From: Antedon mediterranea
Lineage: Eukaryota; Animalia; Echinodermata
Reading direction: 5' to 3'
Assembly (NCBI RefSeq): GCF_964355755.1
Contig: NC_092670.1
Location: forward strand, 32,042,388 to 32,106,387
DNA: 64,000 nucleotides
Position 1 is the first letter of the stretch. Each line of letters opens with the position of its first letter. Both the position numbers and the translations under genes were made by a program. The notes below the pieces were generated by a model. It was not told the DNA's origin and ran no database searches. It worked only from the letters and a program-made list of their open reading frames with translations. Below are positions 29,101 to 61,100 of the stretch, piece after piece.

Positions 29101-30011
29101 CTGCCTCGAATTCCACCTTGATTTTCTCTTCCACGAGGAGCTCCTTTGCCTCTACTACCCTGCCTTCCCCAAGAACTTTCTTGACCACCAAAATTCCACC
29201 GGTTTGAGCCTTGATCTCTTTGTCCATAAGATGAATAAGACCGCTGTTAAATAGAATAAAGTGATTTTAAACTACAAAAACTGCACTAATAATTATCAAA
29301 ACAATTATCCTGTTAGTACTGTATCATAGAACAGGATTCTTGGCAGCATGTGAAGAATGGTGGTATTGTACTGTAGGTGATCACAATATCAATAATAAAT
29401 TTCAAATGGGCTATGTTCTAAAGTTTGTAACCTCAAAACAACTCAACATGATGTTCTTTCTGAACAACCAAGGTTTGGAAAGATTAGTATCTACCGGAGA
29501 GAATTACAAATTAAACTGACCATTGAGTATTCTTAGGAATATAAAGCATGGAATATTGATGATTTTGCATTTATTTTGTTGTCAGAGAGTGAGACTAGAT
29601 CTGAAATTTAACTGTTACAATTCATTGAACCAGGAATTAATAGCAATGCCCTACAGACCTACAGTAGATGTTTTGCTACTCATTCGGGCAAACACTGCAG
29701 GAAGAAGAACTTTGGACGTTTAACTAGCCTATTGTATTGTAGGTCATGATGTTGGGAAAAAGGCCCAGTGATATTCAGTAGTTGGTAAAAATATTAATGG
29801 CATGGCATGATAAATATACAGTAGATGGTTTTACTTGACTATATGGATCCCGATACCCATCATAGCTGGACTGGCTGTATCCTTGATAAGAGGTTCCATA
29901 ATAATCAGCCTGGTATGAATCTTGGTAGGAATATTGCAGTGCTTCATTCCTATTTGATGCATACTGTGCAGCCTCCTGCATTAGTTTCTGTATCTCTGAT
30001 TCATAATCCAT
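5182..30011 (-). CDS. Large low-complexity, probably nuclear RNA-binding protein (about 1700 aa): SYQ-rich N-terminus, RGG, poly-Pro, Gln-rich repeats, two U1/matrin-like C2H2 fingers, RDYP heptad repeats
   Basis: Phase-consistent GT-AG exons: 29835-30011, 26192-29243, 25912-26066, 25552-25620, 15058-15079, 10139-10237, 9747-9880, 8412-8586, 7556-7604, 6130-7213, 5864-5893, 5182-5238 (5103 nt). Fingers FCTDC-x12-H-x5-H and VCLLC-x11-H-x5-H; the C-terminus is ALAKRKR*. Confidence 0.8.
6500..6930 (-). repeat. Coding 21-bp (heptad RDYPxD[V/L]) tandem repeat
   Basis: (cttggataatctcttacatct)n on the + strand; translates as DVRDYPRDVRDYPR in exon 6130-7213. Confidence 0.9.
8884..9190 (-). mobile_element. 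5S rRNA-headed SINE (5S + tRNA-like + core + tail), copy 1
   Basis: About 9077-9190 is the reverse complement of a 5S rRNA-like sequence (ACACCGGTTCTCATCAGATCACCGAACTTAAGCAACG...GGATGGGAGACCGCC). It is followed by a body shared with 52626-52745 and an A-tail. Confidence 0.85.
9490..9572 (+). mobile_element. L2-type LINE/SINE 3' tail remnant
   Basis: aagcgccttgagc...gcgctctataaatct(tat)n. Confidence 0.55.
14180..14262 (+). mobile_element. tRNA-SINE fragment, same family as 63510-63640
   Basis: gggttcaatcctg...cagggttgtaa...gactatttcaactctacttcctaagcctcaa is shared by both copies. Confidence 0.55.
15676..15812. mobile_element. MITE family A copy (TIR aagctctgtctacactatcaaact)
   Basis: Matches the other family A copies at about 8225-8356, 45615-45745, 53517-53627, 55602-55751, 56137-56245, 60001-60164, 60294-60442 and 62875-63035. 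Confidence 0.8.
17258..17572. mobile_element. Non-autonomous element ending in a long hairpin; left end duplicated at about 30619-30705
   Basis: tatataacacctaaataaattcctgtcatttgattggacg... recurs near 30620. An imperfect ~165-bp hairpin at 17405-17571 is centred on actcggctttgcctcgt. A degenerate relative lies at about 14550-14915. Confidence 0.7.
19154..19824. mobile_element. Non-autonomous Tc1/mariner-pogo-type DNA transposon (MITE)
   Basis: Perfect 24-bp TIRs ccgtactgacgcgggtataagccc / gggcttatacccgcgtcagtacgg, with TA on both sides. Confidence 0.85.
20480..21365. repeat. Degenerate tandem array with units of roughly 120-180 bp
   Basis: Recurring tttccggccaacta...ctactgatgagtaggc...tatcgcgtatgtttacc...gcggaaaaagt...tttgctagcgcgctat. 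An adjacent duplication pairs about 19000-19140 with 20168-20330. Confidence 0.85.
21524..21656. mobile_element. MITE family B (TIR aagcgtggttcccactag), internally shorter copy
   Basis: Hairpin element; a longer copy lies at 42925-43105 and a related fragment at about 41440-41560. Confidence 0.8.
23194..24953 (+). mobile_element. Small non-autonomous LTR retrotransposon (Gypsy-like), 1.76 kb
   Basis: LTRs at 23194-23400 and 24752-24953 (TGTAAC...TGTTATA), 4-bp TSD CTAG, PBS TGGTGCCGTAACCAGGAT (23402-23419, complementary to the tRNA-His 3' end with one mismatch) and PPT gagagggggaa before the 3' LTR. No gag or pol ORF. Confidence 0.92.
26700..28660 (-). repeat. Coding Gln-rich tandem repeats (30-bp QQSYQQxPTS units grading into longer QQPQVSQQRYQTPPS units)
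   Basis: Repeated gttggtaactctgttgtgatgttgga motifs inside the 3052-nt exon 26192-29243. Confidence 0.95.
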
Positions 30012-39000: not shown

Positions 39001-42000
39001 TTATATTGAAATTCCATTTGGTATGTTATCGGGATGGAGATTGTTGTAGGGAAATTCTCTGGTAGCATTTCTTTTATCAATCGTAGTTGCTGCACTTCTG
39101 AGGTCCCTTCGGAATCTAAAAGAACAAAAGGTGTTTACCATTATGGAAACTTTTCGACATGGCACCATGGCAAGAACATTGCTCACGCATGGGTAATTAC
39201 CAATCGAAATTGTGATAGGTTTCGCTACTTTAGAAGTGGGGAACGATCATTTCTCTTTTAAGTATGCCCTCACATTTGATATCACACGCCATGCAATCGA
39301 AGCCTGAATCTAAGAAAACAGAAATGGTTCCATTCAAGACTATTTTATTACGCACGGAATTGAGGTTATAGTATGGAGAGCTGAAACATTTTTGTTTAAA
39401 GTGTATGGGCTTTGATTGTTGAGTAAAGATAGCGTACATGAGCTCGATTCCAGGGGTGGCGCCAGGATCTTCCCGACGCGGGGGCTACATTCCCCGACGA
39501 GGGGGCTATGCGAGCGAAGCGAGCATCACAAGGCTGGGGGACAGGGGGCCGCCAAGGGCCCCCGGTGGGGGTCCAGGGGGAGAAGCCCCGGGAGCAACGC
39601 GTTCTAGCGTCATTTGAGGTCATTTTAACCAGATTTAGTGTAGCCATTTTTTCCATTTTTTATAATGCATAAATAAAATACTGCGTGCAAAAAAACGATG
39701 CGCGATGACTGTTTCAATCCATATTTTTTCAATTTAAAAAATAAAAGTTCAAAGAAAATTTAGAAAAATAGAGTTGGAGGTCCTGGAAATTGGACTTATT
39801 ATACTTCAAAACATGAAACAAAATATATAAGTCCCTATCATGGTTGTGACTGAGCTAAGAAATGTTTGAAAAATAGAGATGTTAGGTCCCGGAAAATGCA
39901 CTTCTTGTACTTCGAAATATGACCAGCTTTATTGTTGGGGCTGAGCTAAGAAAATGTTTAAAACTAGAGCTGCAGGTCTTCAAAAAATTGCATTTTATAC
40001 TTTGGAAACATCAGGCCCAGAGGCTTAAAAAAACGCAAGCGTAGACCTTTTTCAGTCGGGGAAATAAGTGTATTCCTCCCAAGTGTATGCCTGCGTACCA
40101 TCTGGACTTCCGAGTGGTGAGAAATTCATGACATACAGCACATTGAAAATTTAATAACTTAGCTATAATAAGATGTTGGCTAAGCGAAAATGTTATGTTT
40201 TTTTGTTTAGTAATGGATGAAATATTTATTCTAGGTGCCCCACGGTACAGAAGGTTACTTGTAAATTAAAAAATTGGTGAACATACGAACAATTAACATA
40301 ATTCGTTTATTGCTGTAGTAGTGTATACGTCGACACAGTACACGACGTAACCGTCGGTAAACTTCGCCTGGAAAATAACTACAGTACACATTTTGGTCCC
40401 TGGATGGAACATGATATCACCAGGGAGTTGTTCTAATAACAACTCCCTGATATCACGACCCAACGTTGAACGATTCGTACAAAGGGATACCGCCAGACAA
40501 GTGCGTACCTATAGCTATTGTTTAGTAGTAAGTTAGATCGCTGGCAATAATGAATGCATATAAAGTTCATAATATCACTCTGACGTACTCTCACGGTCAA
40601 TGAAACGTCGAGGTTTTCTAGGCGCTGAAAGCTACGAAGTGAACGCGAACGAATTATATTCCCCGACAAAAAGTACCCGAACCGTCGGTAAACTTCGCCT
40701 GGAAAATAACTACATTACACATTTTGGTCCCTGGATGGAACTTGATATCACGCGTCTCGACCCAACGTTGAACGATTCGTACAAAGGGATACCGCCAGAC
40801 AAGTGCGTACCTAGCTAATGTTTAGTAGTAAGTTAGATCGCTGGCAATAATGAATGCATATAAATTGCATAATAGCACTCTGACGTACTCTCACGGTCAA
40901 TGAGACGTCGCGGTTTTCTAGGCGCTGAAGCTACCAAGTGAACGCGAACGTTTTTTACTGTATATTATATTCCCCGACAAAAAGTACCCGTGTTCCCTTC
41001 GGTAACCGTCGGTAAACTTCGCCTGGAAAATAACTACATTACACATTTTGGTCCCTGGATGGAACATGATATCACGCGTCTCGACCCAACGGTGAACGAT
41101 TCGTACAAAGGGATACCGCCAAACAAGTGCGTACTAGCTATTGTTTAGTAGTTAGATCTCTGGCAATAATGAATGCATAAAAGTTCCCTCTGACGTACTC
41201 TCACGGTCAATGGAACGTCGTGGTTTTCTAGGCGCTGAAGCTATATGAAGTGAACGCGAACGTTTTTTACTGTATGTTATATTCCCCGACAAAAAGTACC
41301 CGTGTTCCCCGACGGGGGGGCTAGGCTCCCCGACGAGGGGGCTAGAGCCCCCGTAGCCCCCCCGCTGGCGCCACCACTGCTCGATTCACTATAAAATGGT
41401 ATAATGAGCCCTCATTGTAGACCTGCTCAACGTTAACACATTGCGTAAGCGCAACGCAAGTGATTTGTTGACCAATCACAAGCGATGGATTACTGTCAAT
41501 GGTCAAATTACGTATGTGTGTGCCTACGACGTCCCTTCGTTGAGTCAAAGCGGCGGAATCAAGCATAAAGCTACATTCATTTTATTTGTTTTACAGACGA
41601 AAGATGGTACCGTTCAATTCTTTGATGTTCTATTTTATACAGCGCCGTCTTCCGCCGTTCCATGAAACGGATCAAGTATGAATTTAGCTTTATAAGCATT
41701 TTTTTCTTAGCTTAGGCTTATTTATTCTTCAGTTTTTATTGCAAGAAAATTAGAATAGAAACCAGAAATATTAGTAATGTTGTTATTTAGATAAATGTTT
41801 AGGATGAATTAAATTGCTGTTCTTACTGTTGTAAAGCTTCGCAACATTCTTCACTGTATAACCACGTGCTTTCAAATTCACCAAGTTTACTTTTACTTAT
41901 TAAACTCCATAGTTTGACAACAGCAAGCATTCCAAGCATCTTGTTCTTTTCTGGTAATGCCGCCATTAAATCAGATTCTGTCCGTTCAGACTATAGATGA

Positions 42001-45000
42001 AAATAATAATTATTTATTTGAGTGAATCGTCGGCAGACGTAGGCCTATTTTATTTTATTCAATACACAGCCAAGATATACAAACAACTTCCGACAGGCAG
42101 AGAGTAAGCCTACCCTGTACAAAACTGTTGACACCAAACAGCTTTTACCATTTTAGATCTAAAAACGGTTACAATTGAACATTGAAATTTGGATGTTTGA
42201 AATAAATCTCTCTTTGTGACGTCTAGGCCTACTCGTCATCATCCATTTTATAACTTCAAAACAAGGATATTTATACAGTAAGCCTACCTTGTCCATAGGC
42301 GGATCTCCCCTCAGCAGGGTTGGGTAGGCTGGTGGATAGGCGTATGATTCGTAAATGTTATGTTGTGATGATGCATATCCAGCACTAGCTATGTAGATTA
42401 TCACTGTGAACATTTCAATAACCTGTTCACGAGATTCGAACCCATCATTTCCTGGTAAACCCTGTTAAGAAAATATTACCGTTTTAGTACAATGAGTGAA
42501 TTTACTACAAAACGATATCCTCGTCATCTAGCTTGAACGGGTTAATACCATTGATGAGGACCACCTCTCAACCCTCCCGATAATAGAAAAAAGTCAGATT
42601 GTTCGAGGAGAGTCATCTCACGCTCTACCGCTAAAATTCAGATTCTCCCAATGGAAAAATAAAAAATAAAACAAAACTTCAGATTATAATTGTAACTACT
42701 GTACTCTAGATAGAGAAACAGAATACACGTATCAGTCCCTAAGATATTTATAATCAATTCATGCATTGTTTAATCAGAGAAGAGTAAAATTACGCTTGTA
42801 CACTTGCCCAGGTTTCATAAGTGAATAAGTTGGCACCATATTCTCCGGGTTCGCACGTCTGACATACGTACCCATGTTTACGCATTGTCCCGTGTATAAT
42901 AAATAACAAATACTGTATTTAGTAAAGTGTGGTTCCCACTAGCGACGCAACACAAAGACGTAACGCAACGCAAGTGAATTGACCAATCACAAGCGATGGC
43001 TTATTCGCTTGCGATAGCTAACTGTCTATAACTTCGCTTGTCATTGGTTAAAACGCTTGCGTTGCGTTTACGTCTTTGCGTTACGTTCTAATGGAAACCA
43101 AGCTTTAGAAGCAACAAACCATTCAGATTTATAAAGGAATATATCATTTAGGCCTACAATAACATTATTTTCTTTACCGGTATCGCACATCCACCAGCAT
43201 CTACGTTCTTCGACAGAGTGCTTCGAAAGCCATGCAATTCAAAGTCATTTTCAACCTGATCGTCTGTCTCTAAAATATGATAAAATCACGTATATAGGCT
43301 TAATATTCGTTAAGAATTACTTTTTGATGATCAAAAACATATTTGAAAAACAAGTTTTACGAAATTGTTCTCAACGTGCACGAAACTGTTTTGAACAACT
43401 TTTCAAGAAGAAAATGTAAGTAAGAAATCCTTAAATAAAACCTAAAGAACTTTTAAAACTCTAACGACATTCTTTTCTTTTCCTTTAAGCTACCGGTACA
43501 ATGTTTATCACTCCCAAATGTTAATGGTATATAGGCTTTTAAACATATTTAAAATTAATTGAATTACCAAACAATGGAAATACTATAAGAATACGCACAA
43601 ACCAATGCTGTCGATTTGCGCGAATAAATTGCCAGTGGAAAACAGGCTTAAGGTTGTCAATTACTATTGGCCTTTACGTTTTGCCAGATATAAAAAACAG
43701 CTACGCTCAAGAATAGTGTGAACGGCCGGTCATGATATAGCCTACTAATAGAGGTGGACTAAATCAAGGCTTACTGTAATACGCGTTGACAACAGTCGCT
43801 ACATATTTCTTAATGGCGTTCCATATGAGTAGACCGTCGTCCCTGTAGTGAAAATTTGGCAGGACGTCCTCATCAAACACTCCGCGTGCTTTCAAGTTTG
43901 TAGGGAGTACTTCTGTGGTTTGAACTGTTCGAGTTTTACAATCGTTTCGGACAATTTTGAAGGAGCCTTCGCAGCCCATCTTGAAGAAGGAATCGAATGT
44001 ACCATTACTTCCAATCAGTTTGTTAATAACTTGGCTGAATGTAAAGATACAAAATAAATCTCAAACAATTTGTTACAGGAACTTATCTTTTGAGTAAAAA
44101 CTATAAAGTCAGGTTTGCGGTGTATAGGTTCACACCATGTGTTTCCAAAAGGAAGTTTGGAATGTTTCGACGTTTCCGTTGATATTAATTACATAACCAC
44201 GAAGAGTAAAGGCACACACATGGTATACCGCAAACCTGGCTTTACGAATGGTTATACGACATGTAAAATAAATAACTAGTAGGCCTAGGCCATAAAGCCA
44301 AATTTGCAGTACACTCTTTTCAAAAAGGAAGTCACAGTATGTGTGTGTACCGCAAACCCGGATTTAATATTATAACATTGCTCATCATGCAACATTAGAT
44401 TCTTAAAGTACGTGTTTTCCAAATTGTGGCTTAAATAATGAGCGGATAACACCATGAAAGAGTGATTTAACTTCACTTTTTCTTGTCAGCACTGTAGAGC
44501 CACACGAATTCAGAAATCAACTTTAGTTCCCATGTCAAAATAAAACCTCTTTTAAAAGACAATAGATGAACAATATTGTCTATTGTGTTATTTATTTAGC
44601 GCCGCGGCAAGAAGAAAGTTTCCATTATAAGGACAAGATATCTTTCGTATGAGAAAATACACCATCTCGTTCGTCTTTCTTGGCTGTCAATTTTATAACA
44701 ATAACAAAAAAGATGTTTGTGTCAAACACCAGTAAGATGTTTGTATCAAACACCCGTAGGCCTACATACCTATTGGTAGCCATTACATCCTGTAAATGAG
44801 GAGCAAGCAACCTGTGGAGAGGATGAGAAAGAGAAAGATGTCTGTGCATCGTAACAGCCACTGACTCCAAGATGAAGTAGATAAAGCAGTAAGTCGAAGA
44901 CTGGTGGTAAGAAACGTCTGCTAAATTGAACCACATCTTGGCTAACTTCCATGTGTATTCCGGGTCATTCGGCAAGAAAACCTGTCAATTCGATAGAATA

Positions 45001-45677
45001 ATGTATTAATATTCTATTTATTTTGTTACTATTTTTTATTTTTTATAACCAAAATAGTTTGACTAACAAATTTTTTTTCATTTCTTTTCGCTTTATTTTG
45101 TAAAATTTCCCGGACTTTTTTTCTATTTTTATCTAAGTTTCTGAAATTGAAAACAATGGAAAACCAGTCTGGTGAATTACTGTGGTATGACAAATAGTTA
45201 GAAATGTTAGAATTTCTTCCTATATTTCACGTTTTGATCATAATTGTCTTTATCTTCCTGTGGAAAATATTACATTTTGTTTCACTAGACTAATTATAAT
45301 TTCCATAGTTGTGGACGAATAAAGTTATTTTCTTAAACACTACCAAAACCAAAATGTTGAAATGTACCGGAGGTTTAACAGCAGCATGCGGAGGCGCCCT
45401 CGTTAGTTGAATTGCGATTGGTCGAAGTTTTTTATCGCCTCCAAGGAAATATAATGCAAACGGACATGGTAACTGAAAGATAATAAATTCAAAATGCTGG
45501 TACAGTATTGTCTATTTTTATGGTAGATGTAAATTAGACTTTATACACAGTAGCTAAATTCTGTGTATCTAGGCACATTTATGATAAATGTGACCTTGTT
45601 TTTACCTAAACCTTAAGCTCTGCTTACACTCTCATCTAGTAATACTATTATAGTATAGTGATATGACGTCATCGTGT

Positions 45678-45714
<37 letters not shown>

Positions 45715-48700
45715 ACATACAAGTTTGGTAGTGTAAACAGAGCTTTAATTAGACTTTATACACAGTAGCTAAATTATTCTAGTGTAGCTAAGCACATTAT
45801 TATGTACGAGATTATTTTTACCCAAACCTTAATCTAACCTCAAAATAATTCTTATAATTTAGTTGGAACATATGGCTTTGTATATATTCCTATTGTACAT
45901 GGAGATCCGCTACAGCAGTACAGAGGTTTTATTGTTGTATTAGAATTATATGTGAATGAATGCAGAGTGTAATTTACTAGATCTAAAAAAACATGTATTT
46001 ACTCACATATTTAATATCAACCATCACGTGATAGTCTATAACAAAAATACGTTTTTTTGTTAAAGCTTCTTCAAATTTTAACCCTTCAAGAAACGGCTCA
46101 ACCATATCTTCTGTGACGTAAAACCTGCAAAAAACATAACAAAAGAAAGGACTAAGATCAAGGAATGATTGTATGGTGTATAATATTAGAATTGTTCGCT
46201 TATTTATCCATGGATTAACGTATTGACAAAAGTTACGCATACAAACTTATGAAATATTAACCAGCTTTTTAATTTCAACTGGGCATATAAGCTTCGGATT
46301 AAGTTAACTGCTACTGAAACAATTTCTTAAAAGCCGTGTAAGTAGAATTTGTTTACTAACGAACCACTCGAAATCTATTTTTTAAAAGATAAATCTACAA
46401 TTAATGCCGCTAATCTCAAACAAAAACGTTCACGTTCAGGATTTGACATGTTTTTTAAAGAAGCTTTAATATTAACTAGGCCCAAATTTTCGACAAACTA
46501 AAAACGGTGATATTTGACCATCATTTTGTTACGTTATTTGTTGTAAATGTTTGAACTTTGCGTCAGGATGGTCATTGAGAAGTATGTACTTGTTATAAAG
46601 TACAAATTACGTCAGGGTAGGGCATCATCAATATTTGACCAATTACGTTATTTGTTAGTACGTTGTATTAAGACAGTGATCAATTGCAATCCTGTATGCG
46701 TTTACATAGTTAACAAGGCCATATACATGGCTGCAGCGCAGTCGCGTGCGCAAATTTGAGTTAGTGTTTACCAACCAACCGACCGACATAGTGACTGTGG
46801 ACTGTGGACTCGCGTTACACGCGACTAAAAATAAATAACAAATCGTAAGAAATAGAGAGAACGTGAAAACTAACTAGTGTAGATTAATACATCAAATGTG
46901 ACAAGCTATTATGAAGCAATATCATAAAATGTACATACCCTTCTGGTAATTTTTCACAGAGTTTAATTTGAGTTGGGTTACATCCATTGAGGGCATTGTT
47001 TCCAAATACTTCATCGCTGTCCCACGTGTCGATAGACTGTTGAAATAACATAACATTGTATATAACAATCTTGGCCTCTTCGTTCACGAAAATTCCAAAA
47101 AGAATATAAACTAGATTGACCACAAATTAGTGCCACTGAATAATCACCATACAGTCCATATTGTATACTCTAGATTTGGTTCATTTACTTTATTCCTGTT
47201 GTTTATACCGAATAACACCAAGGCTAGGCATATTTATTTATCTAGCTGCACCATTCACCTTTCAATCGATGACACTGGCAAACACAACATGTCAGTAGGC
47301 TATATGTAATATTTAACGATTCAAAATATTTACAAGCAATTACAATACAATATACATGGCAATCAGGGAGTAATTTATTTCATAAAATAACATTTTTTTT
47401 ACCAGATAAATAAATATCAAAATATAAATGACTGCAATCAATTTGTACAATCATGAAATTAGAAATAATCTTTGGCGATCAATATATAGGCTTATCCATT
47501 TTAACAACATTGTTTTAGAATTTTTTTATATAGATGCAGTGCACATCATAACAAGAAAGGACAGGAATGATAGAACAAATTAATAACAAGATGGTCGTTA
47601 CCTTATATTTCATTTACAATGCAAATCCAAACAAGACAAAGATTTTAGTTGGTCTTCTTGTCAAATAAGTAAATAAATGTAACTATTATTATTATTTTAC
47701 ATTTTGACAATAAAGTATGTAAAAAACCAGTAGGCCTAATTTCATTCTCTTTTGATCTAAATAAGACAATTCGTTCTTAATTGAAAACCTTGGTAAAAAA
47801 CGTATTCTGTCCGAAAAAGTGCGCAGAGCTCTCCAAAAAGAAAAACATTATGTAGGATTGTTGGTGATTATACGAAACATACAAAGAGAAGCTAGATATT
47901 CTGACGACTGCTCTTGATGGTGATTTTGGTATATACTAATACGTTTCTGACAAAAAGGAACGGGAGACATACAACTTACCGATGGCCGATGAAAAGTGTA
48001 CTTATAAATTGTTTCAAAGTCAGCAAGAGATTTGAAGTTTCTAGCAGTAGCTATTGCGATTAATTCAGAGTTGATTCGAAGTTTACGGGCGGTTGATGTA
48101 AACGATTTCTAACAGAAACAAACAAATACACACACTATTTAATTTGATATACAAGAGATACTCAACAGTTCTTTTCAGAAGTAAGGTAGTGTACCGCGAA
48201 CTTTAAATCAACATATCAACATCCTGATGTTGTCTGGTTAAAAATTTAATGAAATCCTAAATTCACTGAATTGACAGATAAGATTAATTAAGGCTTTAAT
48301 TGGTTTCAATTGAGGCGTTCTTCTAAATAGGACTCTTTGGTGGGCTTCTTTATCTTAAATTGATTTCAATATTACATTTTTTAAAGATTACTTTTGCAAA
48401 CCAAATTGATGGGTTTCTTTTTTTGGTCTACATATTATGTATAATGCTCTATAAAAACAGTTTCTGAAAGGGGATACATTTTCAAGAATTATAAATATTT
48501 ACCAGTTGATCCGACCGAAACTTTTCGTCACTGGGAAGTGTTCGTACCTGAAAAATAATTTACATTACTAATTCAATTCAATTGAATTAGCCACTAATCC
48601 GCATCAATTGCAAATGCAAATTAATCTAAATTAAATGCATAATAATTACTTAATTAATTATTTCATTACTTGTTGGAGTATCGGTAAATTAGGCCTATAC

Positions 48701-50815
48701 ATAACATTATAAAGTAAAAGTATTTATTTAAATGTTTAATTACGTCAATGAATAATAATACTTTTTGCTATTTTTAAATACATGTACATGCATGTGTACA
48801 ATTATTCATTTGAATGTTATGTTTTTAAATAGGTAACGCTTTTAATGTTTTAATTATTACATTTTTAATATTCTAAACAGATTTTCTCAATTTCCGAAAT
48901 CAATAAATTTTACTGATTACCGATTATCGGAAATTTCATTACCATGGAGACAAGATCGATACAGAATGTATATGTTCATATAGGCCTACCTGTACAGGTA
49001 AACCAGGAATCTTCTGCCAATATTTGTAAACGTTTCGTTTTCCCAAGAGTTCCTCTTTACGCTGTCTATGCTCGGAGTCAAGCTGAGGTAATTGACAGTC
49101 ATATCGACTCCATCTGAAAAATAATCACAGATAATAATAATAACGCTATGGTGTTTGAGCATGCATAGTCCGAGTTTCTAAATACCCATTTTTCAGCCGT
49201 AGTAAACAGTAAGCTACCGTACGGTAACTGTTTCCTAATGATTCTGTTCTCTTGTATATAACTGCCTAAAGAAGGAGCGGCGTGAAAAGAATAAAAATTA
49301 TAATGAATAAAAGAGACCGGAGGTAAATTGAAGATCACTGCATTTTTCAGAAAAAAAAAACATGTTACCAAGGAAATTATAAATGTTCATTGATTCAAGG
49401 TCAAATTTTAGAATTGTATTTTTCCATACCGATTTCTATGTTGCAACTTTTATGAAGTAAGCCTCTCCAGATAGTTTAATTAATGTTCAATTCAATTCTT
49501 ACGACTAAATGAACTAACTTTATTGTGAAAGTATTAGGATATGTTGTAGCTTTACCTTTTGCAAGGTGTCTCCAAAAAAAAGAAGAAAGAAAGAATATGC
49601 CTAGTGAAAGTAAGACTATAATATACCGGTACAAGAGCTAATTAAGACATATTGCTTGTTTAATCGTTATTTATTTGGTGTTGTATATACTGTATATATA
49701 TAAATTGTATTCACGAGACTGATGTGGAGTACAACTTGTTTAATCAATATTGATTGTTTTTACACAAGTTCGTGATATTACAAAAAAAATCAACAAAAAT
49801 ACGACAAAAAAAAAAGAAAAATTTGAAATATTGTAAGACTATTAAAACGTGTTTTGTTTGATGTTTTTATCTGTGTTTATTTTAATTGCTATATAATATA
49901 TTTGTTCACTCATAAGCCAGAATTGACTGTTTTTGTTATAAACAAAATGATTACTAGTATTTTAAAACTTGAATACAATTGGTTAAAAATGTCAGTCTTT
50001 GTGATCTTTTAGTAAATGTTTAGATAAAATCTGTAATTTAGAAGAGGGAGCACGTTCCAAAGTGGGCCAAGTACGCGTTGCCTGGAGTGCTAATCAAACT
50101 TTGTAGAGTTGAAAAATGGGTCGCCGTACTTATTTTTCCCACTGTGCCTTATTAGACTATTATATAATCCATTATATGGTGGTTATTGTTTGTTTAAGTT
50201 ATCAAATAATAACAGTTTATGAACTTTTACTATAAAACAGGGATGTTTACATTTGACAAAGGATCGACATACATTCCTAACGTATCGTAAGATTCCTACT
50301 CTATTGTATAATTGGTCTCTGACGTTTTATTACCGTCTGTTATTGTATTGTATTACCGTAGCAGACACGGGTGCGGTTTACTTGCTTATCTACCACAGAA
50401 CAGTAGCGTAAACCTTGACTGTACTATATACGTTAGGCCTACTGAATTCTCACCTTGTTTTAGTTCCGCCTTTAATCCACCTGTTGATGGGGAATTCATA
50501 AAATTTTCCGTTTACATGATCCGTAACGATAATGAACTCGACGAGCCAGTTATCCCAAAACAGCCACCTGTCTCGCCAAAGTTCAATCTTCACGATTTCA
50601 CCAAAGTCACGGAGATTCTTAATCGGGAATCGATCATTATGGCCTGGTTCAAAATCATCTCTAAACCGAACGTCGAGTTTGTAATCTTTGGATCGTTTAC
50701 CAGTATTGTTCAAAAACGCTATGAAAATATTCCCGTCTGTACCGGCTCCTTTGCGATCAGATGTTTTGACAATGACCTCGTAGTTTTCTGTAGTGTTTGA
50801 CGAAGAGTTTCCCAT
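39001..50815 (-). CDS. Lipoxygenase-family protein (PLAT/LH2 + LOX domain, 665 aa) lacking the canonical iron ligands
   Basis: 13 phase-consistent GT-AG exons: 50454-50815, 48990-49113, 48503-48547, 47980-48108, 46939-47036, 46007-46124, 45368-45472, 44770-44981, 43775-44034, 43178-43269, 42288-42461, 41827-41990, 39001-39115 (1998 nt). Motifs VKTSDRKGAGTD, WDSDEVFG..NGCNP, LRPIAIQL, WKLAKMW, HPLHRLLAPH, YRDDGLLIW, PYNNLHPDNIPNGISI*. Confidence 0.95.
39451..41379. mobile_element. Non-autonomous hAT-like DNA transposon in the last LOX intron
   Basis: TIRs CAGGGGTGGCGCCAG / CTGGCGCCACCACTG with an exact 8-bp TSD CTCGATTC (39443-39450 and 41380-41387). Confidence 0.9.
40350..41310. repeat. Three tandem copies of a ~320-bp unit inside the hAT element
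   Basis: accgtcggtaaacttcgcctggaaaataactac recurs at about 40350, 40681 and 41005. Confidence 0.9.
42925..43105. mobile_element. MITE family B, longer copy
   Basis: aagtgtggttcccactagcgacgcaac...gttacgttctaatggaaccaagctt. Confidence 0.8.
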
Positions 50816-52199
50816 GTCTGTACCACTTGACCGCCAAGAGCAATTCTAATCTGGTTATTAACAGTAGCTAGCAGGAACAACATAAAAGAGACAACAATTA
50901 TAAATTGGTGGTGAACGTCGTATCGACCGGACGCGATTTACTTCCTGAAATGTTACTCGCAATGAGTACAAATACCAGGCTCTTAAAATGAGGTCATTCC
51001 TATCGGAAACCCATGGCAACAGAGGGTTAACATAAAGGCAATTCCAATGGACAAGAAGACTCGCCTAACTTTCCTTTACGATAGGTGTTGATTGTGATTT
51101 TAGGGCAATAGACCATGAATAACGGTGTTTTGAAAAAAGGGTCAATGTCGTTCATATGCAAATTATATAATGCGAAACGAAACCATAAATAAACGTTATT
51201 ATTCAAGTGTAACTGTACACGATACAATATAAATCCCCCTTGGTGACGTTCAAGTCACTCCAGTAGGCCTAACATTGTATTCAATGTTATAACGGTTATC
51301 AACAGAAAATATAAATGAAACTAATAGAACAGATACTGTTAAATAAACACACATTATGGACCAATAAAAATAACTAATTAAAAACAAGACCACAACAGGA
51401 ACAATTATGATATAGACATTTTTAGTGTACGTATTAGGGTATAAACTTTATTTTATTGCGCACACAGTAAAAATATAATACAGTATAATGAATGTAAATG
51501 TAACTACCCCTTCACTCTGATGTTTGCACCTTTATGCCAAAAAGTATAGTACGGTCTAGGGGCATCTTGGCTAGTATTGTGACTTGATTAGTACAAATAA
51601 CATTGATTGACATTAACGTATAAGGGCCTAATTGTAAAATATTGAACTTGAATACTTACTATAGCAACTTATTTATTGTCATTCGTTTATACTTTTAACA
51701 ATAATTACATTTCTTTTTAGGTACTAACAAAACACATACACATTGATAATAATATACAATTATATTTATGTTGTCGGTAAACACATTTATAACGAGTTCC
51801 ATAACGATAAATAATCATTTTAATATTTCATTTTAGAACCATTTTATATAAGTTATTGTATATCAACAATACGTAATTTTATCCACTGAAGATGTCTATA
51901 TTGAATATATTATTAATACATATTCAGTGCTTCTTGATAAAAAAATATTTATTGAATGAAAATACTATTGCGGGCTTTGGACGGTTATGAATACAAAGGT
52001 GATTTTAGTGTTTTATAATATAAAATATTATTATATAGCTATTCTATTTTCATTAAAAAAAACTTCCCCTCGGCTATTTAAGAAGAAATAATCATTTCTT
52101 CAAGTACGCCTGAATTTATATTTACTAATTTATTTAATTTATATTATTAAATTTAAAAATCCACTTACTTAATAATGATCACAGACTATTACAAACAAA

Positions 52200-54417: not shown

Positions 54418-55114
54418 TTAGTGGTAATAAATACACATTGAATTATTTATATGTGGAAACAATCTACCTGGGTTGCATTGCTAAAACAACAAATGATTGA
54501 TTGAACTTGAAGATGTGACATATAGTTCTTAATATAAAATTGTTCACCTTTAGCCCTATATGGCACAGATGAACACTGGCAAGAAAGTCAAAACTTTTCA
54601 ATAACATGCCCATGGCAGCCTAACGGGACCTATTTTGTATCCACTACAAGGCAATATAACAACAGAATGCTGAGCTCCGGAGATCAAAGGGTTTACATGT
54701 GGCTGCAACACGATCAGTTGCATGCCCCTTAACAGACACCGCTCACCACGAAGAATATGTATATATAGTACTGTAGGTATTTGTCGCAGCCAGACATAAG
54801 ATCAAAGGACTGTTACGAGTTCCTATCTTGGAAAGGTGAGGTCAGTGTCCGGTCAGATAGCCTCGGTGTGAACTAGTACAACGGAGTAATCACATAGGCA
54901 CGGCTCCAGGGGCGGGGGGTGATGGGCTGGGTGGTGTGTATATCTACATATAAAACCTGGATAAATCTAGATACACCGAGAATGTAAAGATTTTAATTTT
55001 TGAAAGTAAAAGTAGAACATTTTAGTCTCTCTGGATAATTATAACTACATCTATATAAAATGCTATAAAATGATAAAATCACACAATAAATGAAAAAAAT
55101 GAAATAAAACAGTA

Positions 55115-58100
55115 TCATTGCATTAGGCATGCCGCACTTGTCGTTTTACCATCATTATTTTTCTTGGCGACTTCACTCATTCCCACAATCCTCCCCACTG
55201 AACGGAATTTAGCCAGTTCACCATAGTATAAGGTGTTCTCAACTTCTTCTAGTGTTAATGTATCTCGTTTCTGTTGTTTAGCTGTCTGTACAACATTGTG
55301 AAGTTTTTGCTGCAAAAGAAAACCAAAGTCTTATGAAAAACCTATTTGTTGCATTGGCGGTTAAGGCTGGGGCGCCGTAAAACCATTTCCATACAATTGG
55401 CACAGGATCAAGTTAATAAAAAGACTGTATCTTTATACTCACCATTCTTTGTTGTAACTTTTCTACTTTCTTTTTCTCTGTATTTAAATCCACCATTAAT
55501 TTATATTTTTCTTCATCAACCTGAGCGTAGTAGATAACATGGTAAACGATAAAAAAACCTCACAGATACTGTGTATGTTAAGAATTCAATTTAACAAGAG
55601 TAAAGCTCTACACTATCGCAATAGTTTGACAAAAAAAATGTGATGTGCCCAAATATGGTAGTGATATGCTTAAATATGGTAGTGATATGACATCATTATT
55701 TCCATATGTGCCAGGCACATCACATAAAGTTTGATAGTGTAGACAGAGCTTAAAAGATGTTCACTGATTATGGTCATATTTCATTTCATTAGAATTAACA
55801 ATTTCAGTATAAGGAGGGACAAAGTCAACAAAAGGAAGACCAAGAGTAGAGCTCGATCAAGTTGGTCACCTAAAATTGTTAATTGGCTGTTGTTGAAATC
55901 ACTGATGTATCAAGCATTTGCAATCACTGATAGCGGTCGTGTATGTTTGTTAAGCTATGGTGAATCTAGCCTCTACTGCTTGCTTTTAATAAACTCTACA
56001 TTCAAGGTGTCTTTTATTTTGGCAAAATATAACACAAAGACAACAAACAGCAAATAACATGAAAATAACCAGATACAGTATATATTCCCAGATCTAACCT
56101 GTAAAAACAACCAGTTTCCATTTTTTGTAACTGCCTTAAGCTCTGTCTACACTATCAAACTAGTTTGGCAAAAAAAGTGTGATGTGCCCAAATATGGTAG
56201 TGATATAATGTCATCGTGTCCATATATGGGCACATCACATTTTCTTTAATCTGTAAGATCTTAATCTGTAAGTTGAATATAGCCTTAAATTTAAAGAGAT
56301 TAGTACAATTTTGCAATCCATACTTGAGAAAAACTGCGGCTCACTGCTGACGACTGCTTTCCACGTGAAACTCGTTGAGGTGTACCGCCTTCTTTTTGTC
56401 GCCCCATAATGTTTATCACTAACATTTCCTCTGATAAATAATCTAATAGCTGTTGACATAAAATGAAATATCGTGTTAGGATGTGAAAGTTAGTAGTTAA
56501 TAGCAATAAAATAAATACTGTTTAAGTATAAGAATATGCTATGATATGCTCAACACGTTGTATTGTAAGCATCTAAATATCGGCATATCCATATCCATTC
56601 ATATCCATTCATATCCATTATGGTGGTGAGTGAGTGATGGAGTATTCAGCGAACCTGATTGGCTGATATGATGAAGCTATATTTGATGGTCCCTCTCCAT
56701 GGTGGAATGCTATTTGAGCTGTGGTTGTGTAGGAGTACTCTTTAGTAGTTTAATAATATCTCTATGACATTAATTCAGATGACAAATGGAAACTTACATT
56801 TTTAGTGACTGGACTGAAATGTAATATACGTTCATAGCAGTATTCTGGATTTCGTGTACCACCAATTTCCTTTGTTATTGATGCGTTTTTTTCAACATAA
56901 AATTGAAATTTACAACAACTCTAAAATGAGAAAATTATCATTAGTTGTTATTAAAACCGTGCGCTAATTTCTGATTATGACTTAAAATACAGGTGGCCCT
57001 CCAACTAAAGTCCACATGTAGGGACAGTATTTATTGCTCCTTCTTGTATTTTCTTTGTCTTTGGTTTTGTTACGATAACCTGTTAATTCAGTTTTCCATT
57101 TATTAATTTTGTTTTCACTTGTTTAAAATTTGCTATTACTTTTAAGGAAAACATTTTTTTTTAAATGTAAGGGCTTAATTCTACCAATTTGAAATTAAGG
57201 TTCAATTTTGTATGTCAAAGCAAAGTATCCTCACATCATCATTTTAAAAAAGCGTTTTGCAATATTATGTTTCAAATGATCTAGAAAGGAGGAGCTAACG
57301 TACCTTGGCAATCCGAGTCGGTAATCCTCTTCCATACAGAATTTGAAACTTGTAATGAGCTGATTTTCCAATCTAATGAAAGAGAAAAATATTTAAAAAT
57401 GCAAGCATTGAAAGAAAACAATTTTAGAAAAAGTCAATACAAACTTCAACACCTGCTACCATTGATAAGGTTGTCATGACATTAACAAACCATCAATAAT
57501 CATCTATATAAACTAAACGGACAATTTAGAGAAATTAATTTTATGATGAGCATATTCTGGACATGCCTCTAATGACTTTCACTATTAATTCATTTAAATT
57601 AAAGTTTAAAAACCTTATTCTATCATAGTTTGTAAAAAGTAATGTAGTATTTATTTATTTCTAGTGACTGAGGCTAAATAAGGTATTTTAACCCTTCTAT
57701 CCCAAGTGACTGAGGCTAAATAAGGTATTTTTAATAGGTTTAGGAAAAATGCAAAATACATTTTTATGACTGTAACTTTCTGCAATTGTTTTATTGTTAT
57801 ATGAAATGTTTTGGCCTTCCGAAAAATTGCATTTTATTTTTTAACTAGGTCAAAGGTCAACGATCAAATGCCCAAAAAGTGCAATTTAGTGGCCCTGTGT
57901 ACATACACGGGCCTCGCAGCCTGGGACAGTAAATTCTTCAAAGGGTTAATATTGTATTTTATATTTTAAGGAGTGTTTATATTATATTATTTTAAAGAGG
58001 GCCCAGCTGGAAGGGTTACCCTCGCTAAATAAAGTGGAAAAAACCAAAATAAACTCCTAACACCATTGATGATTACCAAATCTTTTGGATCATCCACAAA

Positions 58101-61100
58101 TTCTTCATCAGGCAGGTCGGAACCATCTTCTTTACAAGGGTTTACCTCGACCCTTAGATGACCTTGCTCATTTCCCCTGTAGTCTGTTATCCAGACAGTC
58201 TCTTCCAATTCAATCTGATAGGCCAGAGGCTGCAGGTAGATGTGAGCATTTCCTACAATGATCTCTGTGTCTGCTGGTTCCCAGAATGGGTCATTTTCCT
58301 GTAGGATAACATAGATCAATCAAAATCAATTTATTCCATAAAACTAAAGATATGCACATCAAAACTTTTATGGAAAAGGGAACTAAAAATAAACAAAGCT
58401 TCTAAGCCGAGACCTTTAAAGAGCAATATGGTGATAAGAAGTTAATAATATAACAATACAAAATGACAATAAAAACAAAAACGGCACTCCTCTCCGCCTA
58501 CTCTAAAATTCTTCTATATAAGATTTCTCCGAAAAAAAACCCCCAATGTTTGTGTCTTAATGATGTGTGTGATTGGGCTAATTCACTACAACCTCGTGTA
58601 TGCAAGTTTGGTGTAATGGTTATATATAACCAGCCTTTCAACTAACAATAGTTTCAGTTGAAACAATAGAACAGCAATGCCAAAAACAAACGTGTGAATT
58701 TTTAAAACTACTCGTATCAAAAAACCTGTAAGTCAGATTTTAATTTTTAATAAGCTTTTGTGATGTGACCAATATATCAATTTTCCTCAAAATAAATAGG
58801 CATGTTCTGTAAGGATATACTAATTTAACACCAAAATATTCAGGAAGATTGTGCTAACAATCAAAAAAAGCAAGTACTATAAATTGGCAAAATTCTAAGA
58901 AGAAGAAGTAATGACAACTATAAGAACCACAGATAATACAAACAATAATCAAATTATTAAACTATATGTAACTATGGTATCATTGAATTGTTTAAAGTCT
59001 CTGTATACCATGTAAGAATCTCTGAATTATTGTTGTAAAAAGAAACCATTTTACAGACATGATACTGACAAGAGGCAGCTAGAGATGTTGGTGGTGGTGT
59101 TATCTACAACTATGAGAAGTTAAGGAAGACAAACAAAATCTCACCTTTTCTCTGTCCCAGTCTTTGTCACCTTCAACAAAATACTGGTACATCTCTTGCA
59201 TAAGGTATCTTCTGTTTAAGAACTTATCTTTGTTCCATAAAAACTCATTTTCATTCTTGACATTCTTCATAATCACCATTACCTACAAAATACACAAGTA
59301 ACATTGGTGTTGGTATTCCATGATTTAAATACTTACCTGGATAGATTTACAATACAACTTTAATACAGAAAACTACAGAAAAACTTTGTATTTTCATTCA
59401 TATTATACTTGACAGGATTTAGGAACAATGTCATGATTATAAAAGGTACTGTAAAATGTACTGTAATCAAATTTAATATATCATAGAAAACAATGGTTTT
59501 TAATTAAGTGTAATAATAACCTATAATAACAATCTGGTGTGATCAAACATTATTTCTGTTAATATGAGACAAAAGACAAAAATACAGAATAAAGATTAAA
59601 GCTACATAATAAGGATGACAGAGACAGACAGAAGGTAAAGAGAAAACAGGACATAGGAAGTCCGTCAGGAGGGAGGTTGCTTCAAATTGAGTAAAAATAT
59701 CTTCTGCCATGACCAATATGGAAAAGAAAAAAACAGAATACAGTTACCTCTGTACGACCAGTCTTGAGACCTCTTGCTTTTGGGGAAACAAGAGCAATTT
59801 GGAATCTTACATTCTTCTTAAGCTCATCACTCATGGCATTTACTTCATTTACCATTGGCACCATCTCAATCAAGTCTTCCTGGAGTAACAGATCCTCTAA
59901 AAAAGAAAAACTCATTCAATAATAACTACTGTATGGCTTCTTTTCTTTTTTTAAGACCCTCTTGAATATATCTGTGCTGTAAAGAGGTAGGTAAAGTGAA
60001 AAGCTCTATCTACACTATCAAACTAGTTTGACAAAAAAAGTGTGTTGTTTCCAAATACGGTAGTGATTTGCCCAAATATGGTAGTGATATTACATCATCA
60101 TGTCTATATATGGGCATATCACATTTTTTTTGTCACATAAAATTTGATAGTGTAGACAGAGCTTTAGTTTAGAGTCTGTTTTCACCAATATTAACTTTAT
60201 TATATTACACCTAACAAATTTTACAGTATTTCGATCTAAGTAGTAAATTCATTTCTGGCTCAGTTGTATATTTCTAGTATTAATATTAAGTGTAAGCCTT
60301 GTCTATGTGACAAAACAATGTGATGTGCCTATATATGGATATGATGATGTCATATCACTACCATATTTGGGTATATCACTACCATATTTGGGCACATCAT
60401 ACTTGTTTTTGTCAAACTATTTTGATAGTGTAGACAGAGCTTAAAATATGATGGAACAAAACATCATAACTCAACTAATAACTAAGGCTGGGTTGAATAA
60501 AGAAGTCGAAATCTTCATTCATAATTGAAGGAGCACAAATAAAATCTTGTTACATACCTTTTGACTTCCCTGGACCCTGTTGCACGTCAAAACCTGAATT
60601 TGCTGCAATTTCTTTCTGAGCCTGATCATATGTAACTGGAGCAATTACTTCCTGTTTTTGTTTATTTTTGGCAAGATCTTGTGGATGGTGGAATATGAAA
60701 AGATGTTTTGACCCAAACATAATACTGTAAAAACATATAAAATATAATAAATATATTCTTACTTACAAAACTACATAATAAGGCATCCTATGAACAGCAA
60801 ACAAACGAAAGACATTTGAGAGTTATAATGATTATGAAGTGGCCTCACAAAGTATGCTAAGGGTATCATAAGTGGCGGATCAAAGAATACCCATTTTGAA
60901 ATAGGTGGGGACCAGGGCCTAAAAGAAGTGAAATGAAGAATGAATCTTTTAAATTGCAATTTCTGAAATTTAGAGAGGCCCAGGCCCTCGCTTGAATTCT
61001 GATCATTAAAAATCCCCTTTAAGCAGCATTGCTAGTACCAATACTTAGAAGTTTATCAGTAACTTTACTATTAAATAAAAAATTATGAATCTCAGATGAA

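What the first reader, a model, noticed from the sequence alone, without database searches (positions are those of the whole stretch)
39001..50815. Intact lipoxygenase gene with all three iron-binding His replaced by Tyr and the Asn ligand by Gln
Seen in sequence: 13 exons splice in frame to 665 aa with no stops or frameshifts, and the structural motifs and C-terminal Ile are kept. The canonical HQxxxHLxxTH motif reads HQSSTYCFIY (TAC codons at 44889-44891 and 44877-44879). The canonical HAAxNF motif reads YASSQH (TAT at 42375-42377). Established: these positions correspond to human ALOX5 H367, H372, H550 and N554, which form the non-heme iron site together with the terminal Ile. Inference: three parallel His-to-Tyr changes in an otherwise maintained gene look like a functional shift rather than decay. 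It could be a metal-free lipid-binding pseudo-lipoxygenase, or a new tyrosinate-ligated metal site with different chemistry. Each change needs only one C-to-T transition, so mutational ease is a caveat.
Basis: partly seen in the sequence, partly recalled or inferred. Interest (0 to 1): 0.9.

Follow-up and report, generated by a model that had tools for sequence, protein, structure and literature searches.

The report
Iron-free lipoxygenase kept by feather stars
Two families of feather stars keep an intact lipoxygenase-like gene that has lost the residues holding the catalytic iron yet is about as conserved as its intact sister genes, so it likely does a non-enzymatic, membrane-binding job rather than using a new tyrosine-based metal site.

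Summary
The gene is real: 13 GT-AG exons give 665 aa, identical to a RefSeq protein of the crinoid Antedon mediterranea. Contigs of an RNA-like run skip five of its introns, and DNA contigs carry the same Tyr codons. The tyrosinate-site idea fails: the orthologue in Anneissia japonica (another family, 78% identical) has Phe/Tyr/Cys, not Tyr/Tyr/Tyr. The protein is constrained like its ligand-intact paralogues, differences cluster at the old metal site, and the PLAT domain is unusually conserved (100/107 vs 72/106). Best reading: a selected, probably metal-free pseudo-lipoxygenase acting through membrane binding (inferred). Loss of two or three His recurs about ten times in animal lipoxygenases (13 of 236 homologues). 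My paper searches found no description, and the scan had not noted it on other DNA. dN/dS, metal content and activity are untested.

The parts
50454..50815 (-). Exon 1 coding part, aa 1-120 (ATG at 50815; holds the PLAT domain); the transcript extends upstream to at least 51140
   Evidence: X1 record 7 covers 50454-51140; in-frame stop upstream
50465..50782 (-). PLAT/LH2 domain, aa 12-117; 100/107 identical to the Anneissia orthologue over aa 11-117; keeps D27, D48, D53, D54, E56 and W113
50555..50566 (-). Aromatic-rich PLAT loop W84-L85-F86-W87 (predicted membrane-inserting loop)
   Evidence: 3 and 4 aromatic residues in the two orthologues, the top two of 95 rows (noticed post hoc)
48990..49113 (-). 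Exon 2, aa 121-162
48503..48547 (-). Exon 3, aa 163-177
47980..48108 (-). Exon 4, aa 178-220
46939..47036 (-). Exon 5, aa 221-252
46007..46124 (-). Exon 6, aa 253-292
45368..45472 (-). Exon 7, aa 293-327
44770..44981 (-). Exon 8, aa 328-397, the helix that carries the first two ligand positions
   Evidence: joint 44034/44770
44877..44891 (-). Y358-C-F-I-Y362: old H-x4-H motif, one residue shorter; orthologue has F..Y and the same deletion
43775..44034 (-). Exon 9, aa 398-484; holds V400 (44030-44028) at the Gly/Ala stereo-switch and the retained L404
43178..43269 (-). Exon 10, aa 485-515
42288..42461 (-). Exon 11, aa 516-573
42354..42377 (-). Y544-A-S-S-Q548-H549-N-I551: old HAAxNFxQ motif; orthologue has C544, same Q548, H549, I551
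41827..41990 (-). Exon 12, aa 574-627; W601 (41909-41907) replaces a Leu kept in 89 of 96 homologues
39001..39115 (-). Exon 13 coding part, aa 628-665 with terminal Ile and stop; the transcript continues to at least 38500

Best explanation
This is an intact, spliced crinoid lipoxygenase paralogue that has lost all three iron-binding histidines and is likely a metal-free pseudo-lipoxygenase that would act by docking on membranes through its highly conserved PLAT domain. Shown: gene structure, splicing of five introns, loss of the ligands, an orthologue in a second family, protein-level constraint, and the excess conservation of PLAT. Inferred history: a crinoid-specific duplication left several ligand-intact copies, and one copy lost the ligands, one residue of the metal-binding helix and second-shell residues before Antedonidae and Comatulidae split. 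Inferred mechanism: no iron, hence no dioxygenase or hydroperoxide-isomerase cycle. The catalytic domain is kept as a folded body with a probably narrowed cavity (Val/Ile at the Gly/Ala switch, Trp for Leu, Tyr for His). The retained acidic PLAT residues and the added aromatic loop would give Ca2+-dependent membrane binding, where the protein would serve as a scaffold or competitor at the surfaces the active lipoxygenases use. My odds: about 0.85 that it is a selected non-oxygenase, about 0.58 for this PLAT-led mechanism.
For: Orthologue P0002: 665 aa, 78% identical, F/Y/C plus Q and the same deletion; different family. Tree of 45 rows: the pair has SH-aLRT 100, stem 0.51, tips 0.14/0.14, against 0.18/0.24 for the ligand-intact sister pair. 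Differences between the orthologues avoid family-conserved columns: 7/89 vs 56/188 in variable ones, p=2.6e-5. The old metal site is the exception: 4/8 vs 4/99, p=8e-4; both orthologues depart from consensus at 8/9 site columns vs 11/99 elsewhere. PLAT identity 100/107 vs 72/106 in the sister pair (p=1.6e-6), catalytic domain 332/445 vs 319/442 (p=0.45); second intact pair 55/69 vs 66/70 over aa 48-117 (p=0.012). D27, D48, D53, D54, E56 align with the acidic loop residues of coral 8R-LOX (their Ca2+ role is recalled). AlphaFold2 pLDDT 92.8, pTM 0.93; TM 0.87 to 5-LOX; Z 46.4, rmsd 3.2, 637 aligned to 15-LOX-2. Five spliced joints in X1, none in DNA runs. PLAT is tied to Ca2+-dependent membrane binding (PMC7436259, passages).
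Against: No metal, activity or binding measurement. Only one orthologue was found. No dN/dS: constraint rests on protein comparisons. The baseline P0005 is a truncated model (571 aa) with a partly degenerate PLAT, which inflates that contrast. The catalytic domain is less conserved than in the P0011/P0124 pair (408/542 vs 447/536, p=0.0012). An ophiuroid paralogue pair with intact ligands also has PLAT above catalytic domain (99/104 vs 366/438), and the sponge-type His-less pair shows the reverse (21/106 vs 182/440). The metal-site window and the aromatic loop were chosen after seeing the data. Y362, C359, Q548, H549 and the terminal Ile are kept in both orthologues, which a remodelled site could also explain. 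Three of 6 listed exonic variants are non-synonymous, not significantly below the neutral share (p=0.13). The Gly-2 myristoylation-like start is shared with intact paralogues (37 of 98 rows).
Confidence: 0.58

Rival explanations
1. A new enzyme on the lipoxygenase scaffold: the residues shared by both orthologues (Y362, C359, Q548, H549, terminal Ile carboxylate) form a remodelled site, metal-free or with a different metal, acting on lipoxygenase products such as hydroperoxides, epoxides or allene oxides.
For: These positions are identical in both orthologues; a polar His replaces a Phe conserved in 94% of canonical rows; the terminal motif is intact; stem branch is long (0.51 vs 0.31), then slow.
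Against: Flanking site positions 358, 361, 363 and 544 differ between the orthologues. Bulky changes at 400 and 601 suggest a narrowed cavity (inference). Shared residues may be packing fixes after metal loss.
Confidence: 0.14
2. A dedicated allosteric partner: it would dimerise with an active paralogue and tune its activity or product, like the proposed allosteric monomer of ALOX15 dimers.
For: Antedon has at least six paralogues with all three His (P0004, P0011, P0014, P0016, P0122, P0269). Dimer allostery is proposed for mammalian ALOX15 (PMC11593649, passages, which says the data suggest but do not prove it).
Against: The excess conservation is in PLAT, not in the catalytic domain, whose helices form the known dimer contacts (recalled).
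Confidence: 0.13
3. An abundant structural or storage protein recruited from an enzyme, as with enzyme-crystallins (recalled analogy), with the fold kept for stability.
For: Whole fold kept; spliced contigs present in the RNA-like run.
Against: Does not explain 93% identity confined to PLAT. Contig depth cannot measure expression level.
Confidence: 0.08
4. One reading: three tyrosinates replace three histidines to form a new Fe(III) site with different chemistry.
For: Tyr at up to three positions in Antedon. Phe and Cys in Anneissia are each one base step from Tyr codons (genetic code), so a Y/Y/Y ancestor is possible. One paper speculates, untested, that a single His398Tyr variant of human ALOX12B might still ligate iron (PMC3840004, passage).
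Against: Equally constrained orthologue keeps only 1 of 3 Tyr. The deletion shifts the register, so Y358 may not be the first ligand. Second-shell Gln lost (95 of 96 others keep it). Tyr is simply one of the single-base neighbours of His: replacements in 236 rows were N 11, R 11, L 6, Y 5.
Confidence: 0.04
5. Young pseudogene or assembly error.
For: Several paralogues could cover the function; 3 non-synonymous variants among 6 listed exonic ones.
Against: Full-length 665-aa frames in two families; non-random constraint; spliced transcript and matching DNA contigs; 0 of 11 variants in 43065-45531 are exonic although 27% of it is exon (p=0.03).
Confidence: 0.03

Closest known systems
Coral 8R-lipoxygenase (Plexaura homomalla AOS-LOX; PDB 2FNQ, 3FG1, 4QWT), 11R-LOX (3VF1) and human ALOX5 (3O8Y)
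   Same: PLAT plus catalytic domain, best PDB sequence hits (E 6e-91 to 9e-83), predicted fold TM 0.85-0.88, terminal Ile, the shielding Leu (L404), acidic PLAT loop, interdomain Trp (W113).
   Different: No ligand His, Gln for Asn, one-residue deletion in the ligand helix, Val at the Gly/Ala switch, second-shell Gln lost.
Crinoid ligand-intact paralogues XP_071956418.1 (P0004, Antedon) and XP_033100800.1 (P0005, Anneissia)
   Same: Nearest relatives, 50% and 48% identical; sister pair (98), unresolved three-way fork with P0122.
   Different: They keep H/H/H/N and Gly at the switch, so are predicted R-type enzymes.
eLOX3 / ALOXE3 hydroperoxide isomerase
   Same: A lipoxygenase paralogue without ordinary dioxygenase activity that works downstream of a partner enzyme (PMC13059375, passages).
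   Different: Its isomerase cycle runs on the iron (same passages); this protein lacks the ligands, so it cannot work that way.
Other His-poor LOX-like proteins: Sycon ciliatum XP_065186429.1, Branchiostoma XP_078689697.1 and XP_078602947.1, Tubulanus XP_074652900.1, flatworm, mite, barnacle and Ciona proteins
   Same: One or no ligand His in a full-length LOX-like chain.
   Different: Separate origins (10 changes for 13 rows), other replacement residues; auto-annotated or unnamed; whether each is functional was not tested.
Pseudoenzymes in general (pseudokinases, iRhoms; recalled)
   Same: Duplicate keeps fold and constraint, loses catalytic residues.
   Different: No lipoxygenase example turned up in my searches.

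Membership tests
Animal lipoxygenase (active enzyme) | PLAT (PF01477) plus lipoxygenase domain (PF00305) | tested here: met
   E 2e-17 and 1e-56
Animal lipoxygenase (active enzyme) | Lipoxygenase fold | tested here: met
   predicted model only:
Animal lipoxygenase (active enzyme) | Three fixed His metal ligands (PMC13059375, PMC3840004) | tested here: not met
   0 of 3 in both orthologues; 207 of 236 homologues have 3
Animal lipoxygenase (active enzyme) | Fourth ligand His, Asn, Ser (or Gly) | tested here: not met
   Gln548 in both orthologues
Animal lipoxygenase (active enzyme) | C-terminal Ile/Val carboxylate | tested here: met
   I665 in both
Animal lipoxygenase (active enzyme) | H-x4-H spacing in the ligand helix (pi-bulge, recalled) | tested here: not met
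   one residue missing; a gap in this stretch in 6 of 236 rows, all among the 13 with at most one His by this alignment
Animal lipoxygenase (active enzyme) | Gly or Ala at the stereo-switch one turn before the invariant Leu | tested here: not met
   Val400 / Ile; Gly 47 and Ala 43 of 96 others
Animal lipoxygenase (active enzyme) | Bound Fe/Mn and PUFA dioxygenation | not testable with these tools
   needs purified protein
eLOX3-type hydroperoxide isomerase | Iron centre retained for redox cycling | tested here: not met
   ligands absent; mechanism per PMC13059375
Tyrosinate-ligated Fe(III) proteins (intradiol dioxygenases, transferrin; recalled) | Ligand Tyr conserved across orthologues | tested here: not met
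   1 of 3 Tyr kept in the one orthologue
Tyrosinate-ligated Fe(III) proteins (intradiol dioxygenases, transferrin; recalled) | Phenolates converge on one site; charge-transfer band | not testable with these tools
   model coordinates were not returned
Pseudoenzyme | Fold kept, catalytic residues lost | tested here: met
Pseudoenzyme | Transcribed and spliced | tested here: met
   five GT-AG joints in run X1, whose RNA status is the tool's guess
Pseudoenzyme | Purifying selection | tested here: met
   protein-level proxies only; dN/dS not run
Pseudoenzyme | Measured lack of activity and a shown non-catalytic role | not testable with these tools
   bench work
Pseudogene | Disabling stops or frameshifts, uniform divergence | tested here: not met

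The most novel reading that the evidence does not exclude
Animals have repeatedly (about ten times in this sample) turned lipoxygenases into iron-free proteins, an undescribed class of pseudo-lipoxygenases. The crinoid one is a Ca2+-triggered membrane adaptor or a metal-free handler of lipoxygenase products that steers oxylipin output of its active sister enzymes.
Probability: 0.3. Interest if true: 0.75.

Novelty: new variant of a known kind. Interest (0 to 1): 0.5.

Why it matters
Reviews call the three His ligands common to all lipoxygenases (PMC13059375) and invariable in a 153-sequence alignment (PMC3840004). A conserved, expressed paralogue without them would be a natural test of what a lipoxygenase body does apart from catalysis (membrane docking, dimer allostery, lipid holding), which is debated for the mammalian enzymes. 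It also shows that database names such as '5-lipoxygenase-like' overcount active enzymes in invertebrates: 29 of 236 homologues here lack at least one His. The more striking claim, a tyrosinate metal site, is unlikely.

Tried and rejected
Whole genome not held, so synteny and paralogue positions were not examined; tblastn with four paralogues finds only this locus in the window. My first exon set had exon 9 one base too long and broke the frame; corrected. No run on record as RNA was listed; X1 is a guess. A second, narrower read-laying was not obtained, so 57 of 97 variant rows and 155 joints stayed unseen; splicing of introns 1-7 is not directly shown, and X1's letters at the Tyr codons are inferred only from the absence of a row. 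dN/dS could not be computed: no nucleotide sequence of the orthologue. Search for further crinoid orthologues or fragments gave none (2 hits of 314 candidates, both distant). The careful IQ-TREE search did not finish; the quick tree was used. The model's secondary structure merges helix types and gave no coordinates, so the pi-bulge and site geometry were not seen. No complex prediction was run: a pass could come from likeness to solved LOX dimers. Paper searches (listings only) found no account of this gene or of a pseudo-lipoxygenase: 12 papers; 59; 9; 8; 111, 15 listed; 0. No divergence date found. The 11R-LOX structure paper is not held, so the Ca2+-ligand identities are recalled. Most subscription papers and all supplements were not searched. 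In the survey, 39 of 275 proteins were dropped for not covering both motifs or under 20% identity; the 236 include near-duplicate isoforms, and the register of P0172 is uncertain.
Full report
Observation. The minus-strand gene at 39001-50815 has 13 exons, 12 GT..AG introns and a 665-aa frame, with an in-frame stop just upstream of the ATG. The protein equals P0001, RefSeq XP_071966226.1 of the feather star Antedon mediterranea, with PLAT and lipoxygenase domains.

Is it an artefact or silent? Four runs were laid. X2 contigs span all three Tyr codons with no difference from the window. X3's 4 and 6 differences and X4's 11 over 43065-45531 are all listed and fall elsewhere; one of three differences in an X4 contig over exon 11 is not shown. 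X2-X4 are one sample and may be the assembly's source. X1, from another study and guessed to be RNA, has contigs that skip introns 8 to 12 at the predicted ends; the DNA runs have none of these joints. Introns 1-7 were not among the 15 joints shown.

Against 5-LOX, 8R-LOX and 11R-LOX the ligand helix is one residue short. HMMER puts Y358 on the first His; MAFFT puts the gap on that His and Y358 on the next Leu. Either way no His remains. Both crinoid copies also share His549 for a conserved Phe, Ile551 for a Gln kept in 95 of 96 homologues, Thr396 for Ile/Val (95 of 96), Val or Ile at the Gly/Ala stereo-switch (Gly or Ala in 90 of 96) and Trp601 for Leu/Phe (95 of 96). The switch and the shielding Leu one turn later are described in PMC13059375 (passages); that Leu is kept (L404). 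That these changes narrow the cavity is my inference.

The decisive comparison. One orthologue was found: P0002, XP_033111083.1 of Anneissia japonica, 665 aa, 78% identical, family Comatulidae against Antedonidae. It has Phe, Tyr and Cys where Antedon has Tyr, Tyr and Tyr, with the same Gln and the same deletion. A tyrosinate triad is therefore not conserved. Among family-conserved columns the orthologues differ at 4 of 8 around the old site and 4 of 99 elsewhere (p=8e-4; window chosen post hoc). A Y/Y/Y ancestor is possible by single base steps, but Tyr is one of several single-step outcomes from His, and Asn and Arg are commoner in the survey.

Selection. In a 45-row tree the pair is well supported (SH-aLRT 100), has a long stem (0.51) and short tips (0.14, 0.14), against 0.18 and 0.24 for the ligand-intact sister pair. 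With ligand columns removed and 236 rows the tips are 0.17/0.16, between intact pairs at 0.20/0.24 and 0.097/0.12. Differences avoid conserved columns (7/89 vs 56/188). Polymorphism is weak evidence: 0 of 11 variants exonic in one stretch (p=0.03), 3 of 6 listed exonic variants non-synonymous (p=0.13). No dN/dS was possible. The predicted structure is a complete lipoxygenase fold (pLDDT 92.8; TM 0.87; Z 46.4, rmsd 3.2, 637 residues).

Where selection is strongest. PLAT is 100/107 identical between the orthologues, against 72/106 for the sister pair, while the catalytic domains are alike (332/445, 319/442). A second intact pair gives 55/69 against 66/70 over the shared PLAT part, but a better-kept catalytic domain (447/536 vs 408/542). 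Of 17 pairs only this one and an ophiuroid paralogue pair have PLAT significantly above the catalytic domain. The acidic residues aligned with the 8R-LOX calcium loop are kept (role recalled), and one loop carries 3-4 aromatic residues, the most among 95 rows. PLAT domains mediate Ca2+-dependent membrane binding in animal lipoxygenases (PMC7436259, passages). Caveat: baseline P0005 is truncated and partly degenerate.

Mechanism. I commit to a metal-free pseudo-lipoxygenase that would bind membranes through PLAT and act there as scaffold or competitor beside at least six ligand-intact paralogues: 0.58. Rivals: a remodelled site using the shared Y362, C359, Q548, H549 and terminal Ile (0.14); an allosteric dimer partner, as proposed but unproven for ALOX15 (PMC11593649, passages) (0.13); a structural protein (0.08); the tyrosinate triad (0.04), for which PMC3840004 offers only an untested remark on a single human His398Tyr variant (passage); pseudogene or error (0.03). 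Lack of metal and activity is inferred from sequence, not measured.

Context and novelty. Of 236 homologues covering both motifs, 207 have three His, 16 two, 7 one and 6 none. The 13 with at most one need 10 changes on a FastTree, at least 9 forced by starred branches, in sponge, amphioxus, nemertean, flatworm, mite, barnacle and tunicate proteins. All 6 rows with a gap in the ligand helix are among these 13. I did not test whether those others are functional. Reviews treat the three His as fixed. Six searches (listings only) showed no description of this gene or class, within a library lacking most subscription papers. Earlier notes of this scan hold no lipoxygenase case, only two analogous iron-less enzymes in other families.

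Verdict. Real and maintained; a new pseudoenzyme variant of the lipoxygenase family, not an active member by its ligand test, and very probably not a tyrosinate metalloenzyme. Interest 0.5.

Noticed in passing
window 39451-41379 (intron 12): 1929-bp insertion with an exact 8-bp target-site duplication and 15-bp terminal inverted repeats (14/15 matching), hAT-like by recalled hallmarks. Contigs of X2 and X3 run straight across the empty site, so it looks polymorphic. It contains internal tandem copies and is high-copy.
   Followed up: partly
window about 42920-43080 (intron 10): Short, extremely high-copy repeat (summed contig depth above 400,000 in the DNA runs, with opposite-strand joints); probably a small inverted-repeat element.
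   Followed up: no
window about 55100-63440, minus strand: Exons of a kinesin-like gene upstream; weak Kinesin_assoc hit below the curated cut-off. KIF28-like by recall only.
   Followed up: partly
window 26154-29246 and 6118-7299, minus strand: A 1031-codon Gln/Pro-rich repetitive open frame and a 394-codon Asp/Tyr/Pro/Arg repeat frame, no Pfam hit; probably exons of one or two large low-complexity genes downstream.
   Followed up: no
proteins P0140/P0170, P0153, P0205, P0086, P0150, P0172, P0191, P0183, P0213, P0262: Other LOX-like proteins with one or no ligand His, of separate origin; P0140 and P0170 (Sycon) share the same K/N/F/H set despite 41% identity.
   Followed up: partly
proteins P0051, P0272-P0274 vs P0271; P0096, P0098, P0112: Lytechinus copies have Arg for the first His while the close Strongylocentrotus protein keeps His; three coral-type proteins have Leu there and a non-canonical C-terminus.
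   Followed up: no
window 41942, 42390, 43868: Non-synonymous variants in laid contigs (K590Q, I539M, D454N), none at ligand positions.
   Followed up: yes
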